From NCBI GenBank assembly GCA_943789275.1, contig CALSTM010000003.1, forward strand, positions 510,001 to 542,000: a DNA stretch of 32,000 bases, read 5' to 3'. A program made the translations under genes and the position numbers. The notes under the pieces were generated by a model. That model was not told the origin of the DNA. It saw only the letters and a list, made by a program, of their open reading frames with translations, and made no database searches. Source of the DNA: Candidatus Poseidoniaceae archaeon. Its GTDB lineage: Archaea > Thermoplasmatota > Poseidoniia > Poseidoniales > Poseidoniaceae. Of this stretch, positions 22,168-25,989 are shown in pieces (positions within the stretch are counted from its first letter, which is position 1; each line of letters opens with the position of its first letter).

Positions 22168-22219
22168 AAAAGCGCAAAAGTACTTGAAGGCCACAGCACT
22201 GACCGATTGTTTGAGAACC

Positions 22220-22561
22220 ATGCTGCAACGTGCATTAGCCGGATTATGCCGCCTTGAAGGCGTCAATCATGCTATGCTTCTCGATGATTCAGGTCAACTC
22301 TTGGCCAGTGTTGGAGAGGAAGGTATTTTTGCACCTGTTGACCAAGCCGTTGAGATGATGAGCGTCGCTCAAGAAACGGGCCATGCACTTGGCTTGGGTC
22401 AAGTGTATGAGGTCTGGTGCGAGAGTACTTCACGCATGGTTCTTGATGTGGTTGGACCGAATCGCATCATCGTACTCAGCGGAGACGGTGGTCGGTTAGC
22501 ACGATGGCGACATGCGCTTGACCGCGACCGTCGAATTTTAGCGACAACCCCACGAATGTGA
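22220..22561 (+). CDS. Stand-alone Roadblock/LC7 (MglB-like) domain protein
   Basis: LQRALAGLCRLEGVNHAMLLDDSGQLLASVGEEG...AQETGHALGLGQVYEVWCESTSRMVLDVVGPNRIIVLSGD follows the Robl_LC7 pattern: a leading helix, G-V-x-x-A-x-L-x-D-x-x-G, then two strands and a helix. The track start is TTG 22184; the first ATG is 22220. Confidence 0.7.
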   Translation: MLQRALAGLCRLEGVNHAMLLDDSGQLLASVGEEGIFAPVDQAVEMMSVAQETGHALGLGQVYEVWCESTSRMVLDVVGPNRIIVLSGDGGRLARWRHALDRDRRILATTPRM

Positions 22562-22569
22562 GTGATACC

Positions 22570-25500
22570 ATGTTTAATCTACCCGAAGGAAAACCAATTG
22601 AAGGAACAATCAGCGTCGAAAGCGGTTCTATACAACCGTTTGACCATGGTGTGATTAGCACCTGGGTTGGTCGACGAAAAACACCTGCTGGACACCGTTT
22701 GGTTCGTGCAGGTCGAATCGTTGCTTGGCTTGCTGAATCTGGTAAGGGCAAACTGTTGCTTGCAGGTAAGGAGGCTCGACTTCGTCTTGAAGACCTTGAA
22801 TCCACGGAAAACAGCAGGTACATTGCTGGAGAGTATTCACTTGCAGGACTCGGAAGCGTCGCTGAAGTTGTTCCTGAAGCGTTTGAGCACGCAGCAGACC
22901 GCCAGGGACTTCTTGCACGTGGCGATGCAGTCGTCCGACTTCTGTCACGAGATTTGTCAGCAGTTCTCCGAACAATGGTTGAACGAGAAACCGTTCGAGG
23001 AGCGATTGCCATCGATCAAGGTATGTTGATTGACAGCATTGGTGAACTACCGAACGAAGCAGAAACCCTTGCCCGAGAAATCCATTCGACACTGGAAGCG
23101 ATGAACATCAGTATTGTCGAAGACGACAGCATGACCAGCGGTAGCCATTGGACCATGCACCACGAAGGTGGTTCACTTCTTTTGGCTCAAGCAGGAGATG
23201 TATCCTTGGGCGTTTGGACCGAAGCCAATACCAATCATGCACGACTTATTTCGGCAGCAGCAGCCGTACTGGAAGGCGAACTCGGTGCAGTCGGTGCTTC
23301 TGGCGGGCCATTGCCTGAAGGTTTTGTTCTGCGTGAAGGTCGAGGCGGTCCTGATGCCATTCTTTCCATGTTAACTGCAGGAGTCAAAGAAGAAGTGACC
23401 GGTCACCTTCAATCCGGCCAATCATCGACCGCTGTATCGGTCCTTTTAGCTCGAGGTGTACCTGTTGGAATCTCTGCTCCCGAAGGCCAATCTTTGGAGG
23501 AAGCAATGCTCACCTTCACCGATTCATCCCGAATCCTCAAACTTCACCGCTTACCTGCAGGAACCATTGTTTCCCGTGACTCGGGTACGGTTGATGAATT
23601 CCGACTCGACGATTTCCACGACCTTCTTGTCACCCTTCGAACACGTTCTGAAAGTCGTCGTGCCAATTTGAAGAGTAAACTCACCGATTTGTTTGGATTT
23701 GAAATCGGAATGGAACAACTGCGCAAGAACCGTTCCAGTGCGACCTTCCCTGAAACAGTAGAAGTGGTCAGTGGAGGATTGCCAGGCGACGCAACTCAAC
23801 CCTTGGCAGTCGACGCCGGTTTGCGACGCCGATTGGAATCAGCAGAACACCTCATCAACGATTTGGAAAAAGAAAAAGCCGTCCTCACCAGCCGTCTTGA
23901 AGAGGCCCAATCTGGAAAGAAGGCTGCCCAAATCCTGGCCCGTGAAGCATCCGAATCACGACAAGAGTTCCTTACCAAAGTCGAATCCTCGAATTCTTCT
24001 CTCGACTCATTGCAATTGGATGTTGCAGAATCTCGTGCTGCGGCAGAACAGGCTGAAAACCGAGCAGAACGCCTTGTTAAGCGTGTGAATGAACTTGAAC
24101 ATCAGGTGAGCGTCCGTGCTGCTGAATTGGCTAAGGCTCTCGGCCATGCAGATTCAAGCGAAACTCTTCGTTCATCCATTGAGGAGTTGGCATTGAAAGA
24201 AGCACAACTCAACGGTGACCTCTTGGCAGGAAGTGAAAGATTGGCAACCATCCGTCAACAATCGGATGATGATGAACGCCGACTTCGAGTTCTTCAAGAA
24301 CAAGTTGAGGCAACACGAGAGCGTCATACTCGAGCGCAAGCGGAAGCCATGATGATGGAAGACAAGATCCACTCGAATTCATCTGAATTGGAGGCCATCG
24401 AATCGGAAGCGAAAGCGGCCCGCCGCAGAGCAGAAGAGGATCGCAATCGCTTGGCTACCGACGAGGCACGTCAAGCACAAGTTCAGGCTGAACTTCGTGA
24501 ATTGATGTCTGAGCGCCGTCAAACGCTACGTGAATTGGGTGACCTTGGCGCTCGCAGAGGACATGCTGAGGCCGAACTTGTATCGCTTATCGAGCGTGCT
24601 GAAGCACTTTCGCAAGCGCATGAAGAGGCACTCTCTGATATTCAAGAAGCAGAACGCCTACGAGCAAGACTGGCTGAAGAGCCACTTGCTCAGGCACTGC
24701 TTGACGATGCCTCAACGTTCGATGGTCTTGGACCGGTGCTTGAACGGCTTGAGAATGCCAGAGCATTGGGTTACTCAGTTACACTGCTCGACCGTGCCGT
24801 CGAGCGTGGTTTGCAAGTGATTCAATCAACCGTGGACCATGTTGCGGCAACGCCACGGCATCTTCTTTCCAGTGAAGTCATGACGCTCCTTGAACGACAA
24901 GTTCCTCAAACCGCAGGTGCAGTTCGCGGACTCGCACGCTGGTCAGTTCAACAACGGCTCGAACATCAGTTGGGAGAAACAGTCGGCCATGTGGTTCTTG
25001 ACCTTGAACATCTGCTGGAAGATTTCGACCGTTCCATCACGATGTTGCGTCGATTAAGAAATGTCCTTGAACAACTTGTTCGACTCGGAGCACCTCCACA
25101 CGAAGTGGATGCATTGCTGAACAATTGCACACGGCCCGAAGCGCTACCAAGTATTGCACAAGCCACTCGTAAACTCATTCAAGTCGCTCTTGATGACATC
25201 TATTTGGAAGCGGACCAACGAGATGCAGGTGAAGCGATTGCCTTGGAAGACACCGCTCGTGTCCTTGAAGAACTGATTACCCAATTGGACGCTTCAGGAC
25301 TCGCTGATGGCGTCCCAAGCGGTATGCTTTGGGAATTCCAACGCGACGGCTTGTTGCCGTATGAACGCAATACAATCCCCGATGCTCAACGAACACCGGT
25401 CGAACAGGCGATGTTGAGCGATATGGAACCCTCACTTGCCGGACAGGTTCCAGTTTCACTCGATGTTGTTGTCGAAACAGCTGAAGTTGATGAATCAGGT

Positions 25501-25737
25501 TGGGAGCAAATGCCTACACCTGTTGATGAAGATGACTCTGATACGAAGGAATCAGCCCCGACCAGTACGCCGGTCACGGTCAATGAATCAGAACACAGTG
25601 ATGAGCGGGCCCAACTTGAGGCTGAATTGGCTCGACTTGATGCATCATGGGATCGCAGGAAGGAACCTGCTGTGGAACAGACTACCGACCCAGCTTTGGC
25701 TGCTCTTGAAGCACGACTGTCGAATCTTGATTTCTGA
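22570..25737 (+). CDS. Giant (~1055 aa) multidomain protein: N-terminal beta-rich module, Roadblock/LC7-like domain, second PATAN/DUF4388-like module, ~290-aa coiled coil, helical domain, acidic disordered tail
   Basis: The track ORF starts at GTG 22558 (overlapping the upstream stop). ATG 22570 is preceded by GTGAGTGA. The Roadblock-like segment (track aa ~131-235, nt 22948-23262) reads LSAVLRTMVERETVRGAIAIDQGMLIDSIGELPNEAETLAREIH...HWTMHHEGGSLLLAQAGDVSLGVWTEANTNHARL. Heptad-rich E/R/A/L/Q sequence runs aa ~421-708 (nt 23818-24681). The tail is D/E/S/T/P-rich and ends LEARLSNLDF. Confidence 0.85.
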   Translation: MFNLPEGKPIEGTISVESGSIQPFDHGVISTWVGRRKTPAGHRLVRAGRIVAWLAESGKGKLLLAGKEARLRLEDLESTENSRYIAGEYSLAGLGSVAEVVPEAFEHAADRQGLLARGDAVVRLLSRDLSAVLRTMVERETVRGAIAIDQGMLIDSIGELPNEAETLAREIHSTLEAMNISIVEDDSMTSGSHWTMHHEGGSLLLAQAGDVSLGVWTEANTNHARLISAAAAVLEGELGAVGASGGPLPEGFVLREGRGGPDAILSMLTAGVKEEVTGHLQSGQSSTAVSVLLARGVPVGISAPEGQSLEEAMLTFTDSSRILKLHRLPAGTIVSRDSGTVDEFRLDDFHDLLVTLRTRSESRRANLKSKLTDLFGFEIGMEQLRKNRSSATFPETVEVVSGGLPGDATQPLAVDAGLRRRLESAEHLINDLEKEKAVLTSRLEEAQSGKKAAQILAREASESRQEFLTKVESSNSSLDSLQLDVAESRAAAEQAENRAERLVKRVNELEHQVSVRAAELAKALGHADSSETLRSSIEELALKEAQLNGDLLAGSERLATIRQQSDDDERRLRVLQEQVEATRERHTRAQAEAMMMEDKIHSNSSELEAIESEAKAARRRAEEDRNRLATDEARQAQVQAELRELMSERRQTLRELGDLGARRGHAEAELVSLIERAEALSQAHEEALSDIQEAERLRARLAEEPLAQALLDDASTFDGLGPVLERLENARALGYSVTLLDRAVERGLQVIQSTVDHVAATPRHLLSSEVMTLLERQVPQTAGAVRGLARWSVQQRLEHQLGETVGHVVLDLEHLLEDFDRSITMLRRLRNVLEQLVRLGAPPHEVDALLNNCTRPEALPSIAQATRKLIQVALDDIYLEADQRDAGEAIALEDTARVLEELITQLDASGLADGVPSGMLWEFQRDGLLPYERNTIPDAQRTPVEQAMLSDMEPSLAGQVPVSLDVVVETAEVDESGWEQMPTPVDEDDSDTKESAPTSTPVTVNESEHSDERAQLEAELARLDASWDRRKEPAVEQTTDPALAALEARLSNLDF

Positions 25738-25746
25738 GGTGCTCAC

Positions 25747-25989
25747 ATGACTGAACCTTCGACTCTCCTTCATCGAAGCGAATCACCTGGGCGGCGTTAT
25801 CCCCTGTTTCTTGAACGAATAGTACTGGTTTTGGTCATCGCTGGAACATGGCTGCTCCACCCGATTGTTTTGGATACGTTGGACGGTGCACTTGGCACAC
25901 TTGCAGCATGGTGCGGATTACCGTTGCTGTTGCTGATGTGTGCTGAACTTATTGGACGAGCTCTTCAATCGGTTCTCAACGATGCGTGA
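25747..25989 (+). CDS. Small two-TM membrane protein, last gene of the Roadblock operon
   Basis: 80-aa ORF with ATG 9 nt after the giant gene's stop, preceded by GAGGTG (25736-25741). The two hydrophobic helices are IVLVLVIAGTWLLHPIVL and LGTLAAWCGLPLLLLMCAELI. Confidence 0.6.
   Translation: MTEPSTLLHRSESPGRRYPLFLERIVLVLVIAGTWLLHPIVLDTLDGALGTLAAWCGLPLLLLMCAELIGRALQSVLNDA

What the first reader, a model, noticed from the sequence alone, without database searches (positions are those of the whole stretch)
22184..25989. Roadblock/LC7 + giant Roadblock-coiled-coil + 2-TM protein operon with no cognate small GTPase
Three same-strand genes are packed with an 8-nt junction (4-nt overlap if GTG 22558 is used) and a 9-nt junction, the last two with Shine-Dalgarno-like sequences. 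They encode (i) a ~113-aa stand-alone Roadblock/LC7 protein, (ii) a ~1055-aa protein with its own internal Roadblock/LC7-like domain, a ~290-aa coiled coil and an acidic tail, and (iii) an 80-aa two-TM protein. Roadblock/LC7 domains act as dimers. In every characterised case they are regulatory platforms for small Ras-like GTPases or motors (MglB-MglA in bacteria, Ragulator-Rag and dynein LC7 in eukaryotes). In prokaryotes the GTPase gene is normally adjacent. Here I find no Walker A GxxxxGK[ST] in any of the three proteins or in the flanking genes. Instead, a probable heterodimeric Roadblock pair is attached to a long coiled coil and possibly anchored by a tiny membrane protein. That would suit a membrane-tethered scaffold or polarity/cytoskeletal module. 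I know of no characterised system with this composition.
Basis: partly seen in the sequence, partly recalled or inferred. Interest (0 to 1): 0.8.

Follow-up and report, generated by a model that had tools for sequence, protein, structure and literature searches.

The report
Archaeal Roadblock coiled-coil membrane scaffold operon
A tightly packed three-gene operon, found across the marine Group II archaea (Poseidoniales), encodes a small Roadblock protein, a 1,055-residue protein with its own Roadblock domain on a rod of fixed length, and a tiny two-pass membrane protein; no GTPase gene lies nearby, so it looks like an uncharacterised membrane-attached scaffold rather than a classic GTPase-switch pair.

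Summary
Three same-strand genes (22220-22561, 22570-25737, 25747-25989) are real and have 8-nt and 9-nt junctions. Each downstream gene has a Shine-Dalgarno-like element that overlaps the upstream stop codon.

The small protein passes Pfam Robl_LC7, narrowly. The giant has no Pfam hit. Its AlphaFold model shows a canonical Roadblock domain at residues 126-235, and all top 50 PDB fold matches are Roadblock proteins (p14/LAMTOR2, Asgard Roadblocks, MglB).

The giant family is restricted to Poseidoniales: about 10 full-length clusters among 1.84 billion representatives, and relatives in 271 species genomes. Both families of the order carry it.

The trio and its gene order are kept down to 35% giant identity. 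One divergent lineage has the giant alone.

No P-loop GTPase lies in the window or in 87 related loci. Whole genomes could not be checked.

The rod (289 residues) has no indels in 30 homologs down to 35% identity. The helical C-terminal domain is the best-conserved part.

Best reading: a lineage-specific, membrane-anchored, Roadblock-based scaffold. Its client or NTPase partner is unknown. The architecture is new; the function is inferred.

The parts
22220..22561 (+). Small stand-alone Roadblock/LC7 protein, 113 aa. Carries an invariant basic C-terminal helix, GGRLARWRHALDRDRR.
   Evidence: Start fixed by 22 homologs. Pfam Robl_LC7 scores 24.2 bits against a cutoff of 23, matching only residues 5-33; 22/22 homologs hit it. 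The profile's best PDB match is the Asgard Roadblock 7yh1 over residues 2-92, at E 0.089. The family is confined to Poseidoniales.
22560..22566 (+). SD-like GAGTGAT overlapping the small gene's stop codon, 3 nt upstream of the giant's ATG.
   Evidence: Read from the sequence. A GTGAT/GGTGA element and a 4-11 nt spacing are kept in 78 loci.
22570..25737 (+). Giant protein, 1055 aa: N-terminal three-domain head, rod, conserved helical domain and acidic tail.
   Evidence: Homolog alignments. AlphaFold models. No Pfam family. 115 representatives at E <= 0.001 among 1.84 billion proteins.
22570..22902 (+). D1 (residues 1-111): beta-rich alpha/beta domain with no family assignment. Contains a conserved R/K-x-K-T/N-P-x-G-H-R motif.
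   Evidence: pLDDT 85-93 in the N-terminal model. No Pfam or PDB sequence match.
22945..23274 (+). D2 (residues 126-235): internal Roadblock-fold domain.
   Evidence: Topology alpha-beta-beta-alpha-beta-beta-beta-alpha. In Foldseek against the PDB, all top 50 hits are Roadblock proteins, with E down to 4e-6 and target TM 0.67-0.81. Pfam Robl_LC7 is found in only 4/30 homologs, best E 6e-4. JGI names many homologs COG2018.
23323..23634 (+). D3 (residues 252-355): second unassigned alpha/beta domain (beta-alpha-beta-beta-beta-alpha-beta).
   Evidence: No Pfam hit (including no DUF4388) and no PDB sequence hit. The 'GHIQSGKS' string in some homologs is a non-conserved pseudo-Walker A.
23815..24672 (+). 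Rod (residues 416-701): helices 416-523 and 529-701, with a conserved break at LAKALGxxxSSE.
   Evidence: The 289 residues between positions 416 and 704 have no indels in 30 homologs down to 35% identity, and one heptad register runs from about 521 to 700. The only hits are to SMC/Rad50 arms, far below cutoffs.
24682..25374 (+). CT (residues 705-935): all-helical domain, the most conserved part of the protein.
   Evidence: 84-99% identity across Poseidoniaceae, where the rest of the protein is 50-97%. Length is 231-233 residues in the 29 homologs of the 30-sequence alignment that cover the domain. No family or PDB sequence match.
25441..25722 (+). Acidic disordered linker (residues 958-1009) followed by two terminal amphipathic helices (1010-1029 and 1041-1051).
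   Evidence: pLDDT below 50 for the linker. Net charge -20 over residues 941-1055. The C-terminal motif [DE]xxLxxLExxLxxL[DE][FLMIY]-COOH is kept in 26 of the 29 aligned full-length homologs, both families included; the three most divergent show looser acidic, leucine-rich variants.
25736..25741 (+). SD-like GAGGTG overlapping the giant's stop codon, 5 nt upstream of the 2-TM ATG.
   Evidence: Read from the sequence. The junction is mostly 8-11 nt in 68 loci.
25747..25989 (+). 80-aa two-TM hairpin protein. Has a conserved basic N-terminal motif (TLxGRxExxGxxYPLxxER) and a conserved E..GR at the end of TM2.
   Evidence: Hydropathy. An alignment of 68 orthologs shows the motifs. The gene is present even where an FG-GAP gene is inserted before it (L085). 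It is absent next to the giant in L087.

Best explanation
The three genes form one translationally coupled operon. It encodes a Poseidoniales-specific, membrane-attached scaffold complex built on Roadblock modules.

Proposed working:
1. The giant dimerises through its invariant-length coiled-coil rod. That brings two N-terminal heads (D1, Roadblock D2, D3) together, so the Roadblock domains can form the usual dimeric platform.
2. The small Roadblock protein joins this platform. It does so either by pairing directly with D2 or, as in MglC-MglB and Ragulator-Rag, as its own dimer stacked on another Roadblock dimer.
3. Its invariant basic C-terminal helix is a likely contact for the giant's acidic helical tail. 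This parallels the acidic RomR C-terminus binding the basic KRR patch of the MglC Roadblock dimer.
4. The 2-TM hairpin has both ends in the cytoplasm and a conserved N-terminal motif. It holds the complex at the membrane.
5. The highly conserved C-terminal helical domain is the main client-binding surface. The client (an NTPase encoded elsewhere, or an envelope or division component) is unknown.

Shown: gene reality, starts and junctions; the Roadblock identity of both modules (the internal one by predicted fold); order-wide conservation of the trio; the fixed rod length; absence of an adjacent GTPase.

Inferred: every protein-protein contact, the oligomeric state, membrane anchoring of the complex, and the cellular role.
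For: - Operon: junctions of 8 and 9 nt, with SD-like elements overlapping the stop codons. These features are conserved in 68-78 loci.
- Roadblock modules.
- Conservation: relatives in 271 species genomes. Both Poseidoniaceae and Thalassarchaeaceae carry it. The trio is kept at 35-47% giant identity.
- Structural role: the 289-residue rod has no indels down to 35% identity, with an unbroken heptad register of about 180 residues. The CT length is also fixed.
- CT is the most conserved region.
- Membrane partner: two hydrophobic segments and a conserved basic N-terminus.
- Charge complementarity: the tail has net charge -20, against the invariant RLARWRHALDRDRR helix.
- Precedents: layered Roadblock dimers and an acidic helix binding a basic Roadblock patch (PMC10329633); archaeal Roadblock proteins proposed as scaffold or membrane modules (PMC10933270).
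- No GTPase in 88 loci.
Against:
- Identity of the small protein does not track identity of D2. In clade L046/L009/L030 the small protein is 77-84% identical while D2 is 55-61%; in clade L011/L007 the pattern is reversed.
- One divergent lineage (L087) has the giant without the small gene or the 2-TM gene next to it, so the giant can stand alone.
- Gene order is conserved just as well for unrelated neighbours (TtuA, pyrBI, DUF58). Synteny alone is therefore weak evidence in this order.
- D1, D3 and CT have no recognisable relatives, so the core function is unassigned.
- A GTPase partner elsewhere in the genome is not excluded.
Confidence: 0.45

Rival explanations
1. Trans-acting GTPase regulator. 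The Roadblock platform (small protein plus D2) is an MglB-like GAP/GEF or a Ragulator-like tether for a small GTPase encoded elsewhere in the Poseidoniales genome. The rod and the 2-TM protein only position it.
For: Fold matches to MglB, LAMTOR2 and Asgard Roadblocks. Roadblock platforms usually serve GTPases (PMC10933270; PMC10329633). 59 MglA homologs are unlinked to any MglB, so unlinked pairs do occur (PMC4316618).
Against: No GTPase within about 6-8 kb in any of 88 loci. In the 2014 survey, archaeal Group 4 MglA was almost confined to methanogens, although Group 5 MglA members also occur in Archaea. 38 of 238 genomes with MglB homologs had no MglA at all. The whole genome was not searched.
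Confidence: 0.22
2. Functional unit with the convergent neighbours. The trio works with the abutting ~400-aa multi-TM / DUF58 / DUF4350 cluster (and the PRC-barrel and CDC48 genes beyond) as one envelope or AAA-ATPase-linked machine.
For: This neighbourhood is kept in essentially all loci, including the most divergent ones. The convergent stop codons abut (25989/25990). DUF58 is 92-100% identical across the family, similar to the conservation of CT. The Roadblock superfamily is linked to NTPase regulation in general (Koonin and Aravind 2000, cited).
Against: The orientation is convergent, so the genes are on separate transcripts. TtuA and pyrBI on the other side are conserved neighbours too, which points to general synteny. 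L087 keeps TtuA and the giant but has a different downstream gene.
Confidence: 0.12
3. Decayed MglA/MglB locus. An ancestral GTPase gene was lost and the remaining genes are relics.
For: Gene loss of this kind creates orphan MglB genes in actinobacterial conservons.
Against: All three genes are intact and conserved in hundreds of genomes across two families. They carry invariant motifs and a fixed-length rod. No relative has a fused or adjacent GTPase.
Confidence: 0.04
4. SMC/Rad50-like chromosome-organising protein.
For: NCBIfam Rad50 and SMC models hit residues 425-704 (E 2e-7 to 1e-5). A PADLOC JetC model also hits weakly.
Against: The scores are 23-30 bits against cutoffs of 567-1087, and they cover only the coiled-coil arms. 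There is no Walker A or B head. The ends of the protein carry a Roadblock head and a helical domain instead.
Confidence: 0.03

Closest known systems
Myxococcus RomR/MglC/MglB polarity module (Roadblock dimers MglB and MglC)
   Same: Two different Roadblock proteins are encoded together and probably work together. In Myxococcus an acidic alpha-helical tail (RomR-C) binds a basic patch on a Roadblock dimer; here the giant has an acidic helical tail and the small Roadblock has an invariant basic C-terminal helix. The predicted fold matches MglB.
   Different: There is no MglA GTPase in the locus. One Roadblock domain is embedded in a 1055-aa rod protein. A 2-TM partner is present. No sequence-level membership in the MglB or MglC families. 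The organism is an archaeon.
Eukaryotic Ragulator (LAMTOR1-5) / Rag GTPase C-terminal Roadblock domains
   Same: Roadblock modules are held at a membrane by a small dedicated anchor protein and act as a layered scaffold. LAMTOR2 (p14) is among the best fold matches.
   Different: The anchor here is a 2-TM hairpin, not a lipidated LAMTOR1. There are no Rag-type GTPase domains. Coiled-coil rod and CT domain are added. Heterodimer formation is unproven.
Stand-alone archaeal Roadblock proteins (Asgard Thor-RB and MKD1-RB; PDB 7f8m, 7yh1, 9jue)
   Same: These are the best structural and sequence matches for both modules. They have been proposed to act as scaffold or membrane-interacting modules.
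   Different: They are about 115-aa homodimers. Here one module is fused into a giant multidomain protein, and the family is confined to Poseidoniales.
Orphan MglB homologs of prokaryotes (Wuichet and Sogaard-Andersen 2015)
   Same: A Roadblock gene without a linked MglA gene. That class covers 328 of 749 homologs, none of them characterised.
   Different: The architecture (rod, CT domain, 2-TM partner) and the order-wide fixed operon were not described there.

Membership tests
Roadblock/LC7 (Pfam PF03259) - small protein | Score at or above the Pfam gathering cutoff | tested here: met
   24.2 bits against a cutoff of 23, matching only residues 5-33. 22/22 homologs match, best E 7.7e-6.
Roadblock/LC7 - small protein | Full alpha-beta-beta-alpha-beta-beta-beta(-alpha) fold | tested here: inconclusive
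   The profile aligns to the Asgard Roadblock 7yh1 over residues 2-92, but at E 0.089.
Roadblock/LC7 - giant residues 126-235 | Score at or above the Pfam gathering cutoff | tested here: not met
   No hit for the window protein. 4/30 homologs hit weakly, best E 6e-4.
Roadblock/LC7 - giant residues 126-235 | Roadblock fold | tested here: met
   The predicted topology is alpha-beta-beta-alpha-beta-beta-beta-alpha. All 50 top Foldseek PDB hits are Roadblock proteins, with E 4e-6 to 1.5e-4 and target TM 0.67-0.81. This rests on a model, not a solved structure.
MglB-type GTPase regulator | Cognate MglA-family GTPase gene within a few genes | tested here: not met
   No ORF with G1+G3+G4 motifs in 88 loci (1.18 Mb). 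No GTPase Pfam hit in the window.
MglB-type GTPase regulator | GAP/GEF activity on a small GTPase; homodimer | not testable with these tools
   Needs biochemistry, or at least multimer modelling with a candidate GTPase.
Ragulator-like membrane scaffold | Roadblock heterodimer bound to a membrane anchor | not testable with these tools
   Only adjacency and translational coupling are shown. Per-domain identities show no co-variation.
SMC/Rad50 | Walker A/B ATPase head domains flanking the coiled coil | tested here: not met
   No Walker A. The model hits cover only the arms, at 23-30 bits against cutoffs of 567-1087.
DUF4388/PATAN (for D1 and D3) | Pfam PF14332 match | tested here: not met
   No hit at E <= 1 in 30 full-length homologs, nor at E <= 10 in 10 isolated domains. 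A fold-level test was not possible.

The most novel reading that the evidence does not exclude
The trio is a previously unrecognised, GTPase-independent cytoskeletal or envelope element of marine Group II archaea. In this reading a fixed-length (about 40 nm if fully extended) Roadblock-headed rod is anchored to the membrane by a dedicated 2-TM protein. It acts as a spacer or organiser for the cell envelope or division site. Roadblock domains would then serve as pure assembly modules rather than NTPase regulators.
Probability: 0.2. Interest if true: 0.75.

Novelty: new variant of a known kind. Interest (0 to 1): 0.5.

Why it matters
Poseidoniales are among the most abundant archaea in the surface ocean, they are uncultured, and their cell biology is essentially unknown.

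This operon appears to be a near-universal marker of the order, and every homolog is annotated as hypothetical. It combines the ancient Roadblock platform, known from MglB, Ragulator and dynein LC7, with a rod of strictly conserved length and a dedicated membrane protein.

If it works without a GTPase, Roadblock modules would have a role beyond NTPase regulation, and the archaeal cytoskeleton would gain a new kind of element. If a distant GTPase partner exists, it would be an archaeal, non-Asgard example of a membrane-tethered Roadblock-GTPase system.

Either way, the proteins are concrete targets for structure prediction, heterologous expression and cryo-electron tomography of environmental cells.

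Tried and rejected
- DUF4388/PATAN identity of D1 and D3. From memory the sequence pattern looked similar, and the literature links PATAN to MglB neighbourhoods. 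No Pfam match was found and no PDB sequence match, so it is not claimed.
- SMC/Rad50/JetC. Only the arms hit, far below cutoffs. Rejected.
- Anti-phage defence. PADLOC gave nothing else, and the locus sits among core housekeeping genes. Rejected.
- RNA elements. Rfam gave no hits in the window. Promoter and terminator scans were at background level.
- Internal duplication, and relatedness of the small protein to D2. hhalign gave only a weak in-register match of the small protein to D2 (P 0.0025, 26 columns), and nothing between D1, D2 and D3.
- Co-evolution of the small protein with D2, tested by per-domain identities. No specific tracking was seen.
- The last homology search, run with a broadened profile of the small protein, returned only family members. 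No outgroup context could be examined.
- Whole-genome search for small GTPases in Poseidoniales.

Full report
**What is there**

The window comes from a Poseidoniaceae (marine Group II) archaeon, judged by the source names of close homologs. Three + strand ORFs occupy 22184-25989.

Alignments with homologs set the true starts:
- Small gene: ATG 22220, 113 aa.
- Giant gene: ATG 22570, 1055 aa.
- 2-TM gene: ATG 25747, 80 aa.

The junctions are 8 nt and 9 nt. In both, the upstream stop codon lies inside a Shine-Dalgarno-like element: TGA-GTGAT before the giant and TGA-GGTG before the 2-TM gene. This arrangement recurs in related loci. The small-to-giant spacing is 4-11 nt in 78 loci, with GTGAT/GGTGA retained. 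The giant-to-2TM spacing is mostly 8-11 nt in 68 loci. The genes are therefore very likely co-transcribed and translationally coupled. That step is inferred from the sequence; no transcript data were examined.

**Identity of the parts**

*Small protein.* It passes Pfam Robl_LC7 narrowly (24.2 bits against a cutoff of 23, N-terminal third only). All 22 homologs tested match the same model. Its profile's best PDB hit is an Asgard Roadblock (7yh1) over residues 2-92, at E 0.089. It ends in an invariant basic helix, GGRLARWRHALDRDRR.

*Giant protein.* It has no Pfam, NCBIfam or PDB sequence relative apart from coiled-coil noise. AlphaFold models were built on a 30-32-sequence alignment that reaches 35% identity. 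Mean pLDDT is 71.9 for the full length and 80.3 for residues 1-395. They show:
- D1 (residues 1-111), beta-rich.
- D2 (126-235), with the canonical Roadblock order alpha-beta-beta-alpha-beta-beta-beta-alpha.
- D3 (252-355), a second alpha/beta domain.
- A helix at 361-390.
- Two very long helices, 416-523 and 529-701.
- An all-helical domain, 705-935.
- A disordered acidic stretch, 958-1009.
- Two terminal helices.

Foldseek of either model against the PDB returns only Roadblock proteins in the top 50: LAMTOR2/p14, LAMTOR4/5, Asgard Roadblocks, MglB and dynein LC7. E-values go down to 4e-6 and target-normalised TM-scores are 0.67-0.81. The internal Roadblock domain is thus supported at the level of predicted fold. 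At sequence level only 4/30 homologs touch the Pfam model. D1, D3 and the C-terminal domain remain unassigned.

*80-aa protein.* It has two hydrophobic segments. Orthologs share a basic N-terminal motif (TLxGRxExxGxxYPLxxER) and an E..GR motif after TM2. By the positive-inside rule both ends would be cytoplasmic; this is inference.

**Distribution**

An exhaustive phmmer search of 1.84 billion cluster representatives found 115 hits at E <= 0.001. About ten are full-length clusters (1020-1089 aa, 35-63% identity) and the rest are fragments. All are collinear with the query. Named members belong to Poseidoniaceae and Thalassarchaeaceae. A scan of one genome per GTDB species found relatives in 271 genomes; 79 of the 80 shown carry Poseidoniales, Poseidoniaceae, Poseidonia or broader archaeal labels, and the exception is noted under oddities. 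The small protein is equally lineage-bound. All homologs are annotated as hypothetical or, by JGI, as COG2018.

**Gene order**

The order across 84 loci is TtuA(-) | small, giant, 2-TM (+) | ~400-aa multi-TM, DUF58, DUF4350 (-). It is essentially invariant and holds for the divergent forms:
- L004 (giant 46% identical): its 103-aa upstream ORF matches the small-protein profile at hhalign probability 96%.
- L002 (36%).
- L085 (35%): an FG-GAP gene is inserted, but the 2-TM gene with its YPLWIER motif still follows.
- L087 (a 69% GC lineage): the giant is there without a recognisable small or 2-TM gene beside it.

Unrelated housekeeping neighbours are conserved to the same degree. Synteny by itself is therefore weak evidence here; the tight coupling of the three genes is the stronger argument.

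**The missing GTPase**

Pfam scans of 25 of the window's larger ORFs, covering every plausible gene, found no small GTPase. Walker A motifs occur only in CDC48 and two spurious frames.

No ORF with ordered G1/G3/G4 motifs exists in the window or the 87 related loci (1.18 Mb). The 'GHIQSGKS' string in D3 of some homologs is not conserved (the window has GHLQSGQS) and lies in a predicted strand.

The absence next to the operon is therefore real and family-wide. In the published survey, 328 of 749 prokaryotic MglB homologs are unlinked to MglA, none of these is characterised, and 38 of 238 genomes with MglB homologs lack MglA altogether (PMC4316618). I could not search whole Poseidoniales genomes.

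**Clues to function**

1. The segment from residue 416 to 704 is exactly 289 residues in all 30 aligned homologs down to 35% identity. The second helix keeps one heptad register for about 180 residues, and the C-terminal domain is 231-233 residues in the 29 aligned homologs that cover it. A rod that tolerates no indels suggests a structural ruler or a tightly registered assembly.
2. The C-terminal helical domain is the most conserved region: 84-99% identity where the Roadblock domain is 48-97%. This points to the key partner surface.
3. The tail is strongly acidic (net -20). In 26 of the 29 aligned full-length homologs it ends in [DE]xxLxxLExxLxxL[DE]-hydrophobic-COOH, and the three most divergent homologs carry looser acidic variants. 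The small Roadblock carries an invariant basic helix. In Myxococcus, an acidic helical RomR C-terminus binds the basic KRR patch of the MglC Roadblock dimer, and Roadblock dimers stack in layers (MglC-MglB, Ragulator-Rag) (PMC10329633). By analogy I propose the small Roadblock docks on the giant through such contacts.
4. Against simple heterodimer co-evolution, identity of the small protein and of D2 do not track each other between clades. A parallel giant dimer would also allow D2-D2 homodimers.

**Verdict**

The most likely reading (confidence about 0.45) is a lineage-specific, membrane-anchored, Roadblock-based coiled-coil scaffold whose client is unknown. The rivals are:
- A regulator of a GTPase encoded elsewhere (0.22).
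- A functional link to the convergent multi-TM/DUF58/DUF4350/CDC48 neighbours (0.12).
- A decayed MglA/MglB locus (0.04).
- An SMC-like protein (0.03).

The building block is known, but the architecture and the operon are undescribed. No paper in the library covers them. I rate it a new variant of a known kind, with moderate interest.

Noticed in passing
window 27206-28459 (-): The DUF58 protein is 92-100% identical across Poseidoniaceae loci, where TtuA is 69-99% and the giant 62-96% identical. That is unusually strong conservation for a protein of unknown function.
   Followed up: partly
window 30226-30498 (-): A 90-aa ORF lies between DUF4350 and CDC48, at the position where the related loci L001 and L085 carry a gene called PRC (PF05239). 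The window ORF itself was not scanned. CDC48 runs off the window end.
   Followed up: no
giant D3, window about 23395-23420; homologs P0037, P0043, P0078 and others: 'GHIQ[SA]GKS' fits the Walker A pattern in some homologs. It is not conserved (the window has GHLQSGQS) and sits in a predicted beta-strand, so it is a pseudo-P-loop.
   Followed up: yes
L085/L086 11182-12859; L087 7500-8000 and 11186-11404: In one divergent lineage a 461-aa FG-GAP protein gene is inserted between the giant and the 2-TM gene. In a 69% GC lineage the giant has neither the small Roadblock gene nor the 2-TM gene beside it.
   Followed up: partly
giant residues 164-191 (window about 23059-23142): Helix alpha2 and the following loop of the internal Roadblock domain are the fastest-evolving part of the giant. 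Clade L046/L009/L030 has a D2 that is 55-61% identical while its flanking domains are 72-83% identical, which suggests accelerated change or exchange at domain level.
   Followed up: partly
giant C-terminus, window 25690-25734: The terminal motif DxxLxxLExxLxxLD-hydrophobic-COOH is kept in 26 of the 29 aligned full-length homologs. From memory it resembles the ESCRT-III MIM1 motif (D/E)xxLxxRLxxL(K/R). This is an untested lead.
   Followed up: no
window 25987-25992: The stop codon of the 2-TM gene (ends at 25989) directly abuts the stop codon of the convergent 404-aa multi-TM gene (25990). In L001 the two genes overlap by 4 nt.
   Followed up: no
L078 (NZEQ01000033.1): This contig is labelled as a Verrucomicrobiales MAG but carries the Poseidoniales locus from TtuA to DUF58, where the contig ends. 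It is probably mis-binned.
   Followed up: no
window 11185-11925 (+): A 246-aa protein matches Pfam Frag1/DRAM/Sfk1 (PF10277, E 3.8e-15). As far as I recall, this family is known mainly from eukaryotes.
   Followed up: no
window 15016-17568 (+) and 17565-19424 (-): Two large neighbouring proteins (850 aa and 619 aa) have no Pfam or NCBIfam match. From its translation the 619-aa protein looks hydrophobic near the N-terminus and coiled-coil-like beyond, though neither feature was computed. They are absent from the upstream flank shown for the distant locus L001.
   Followed up: no
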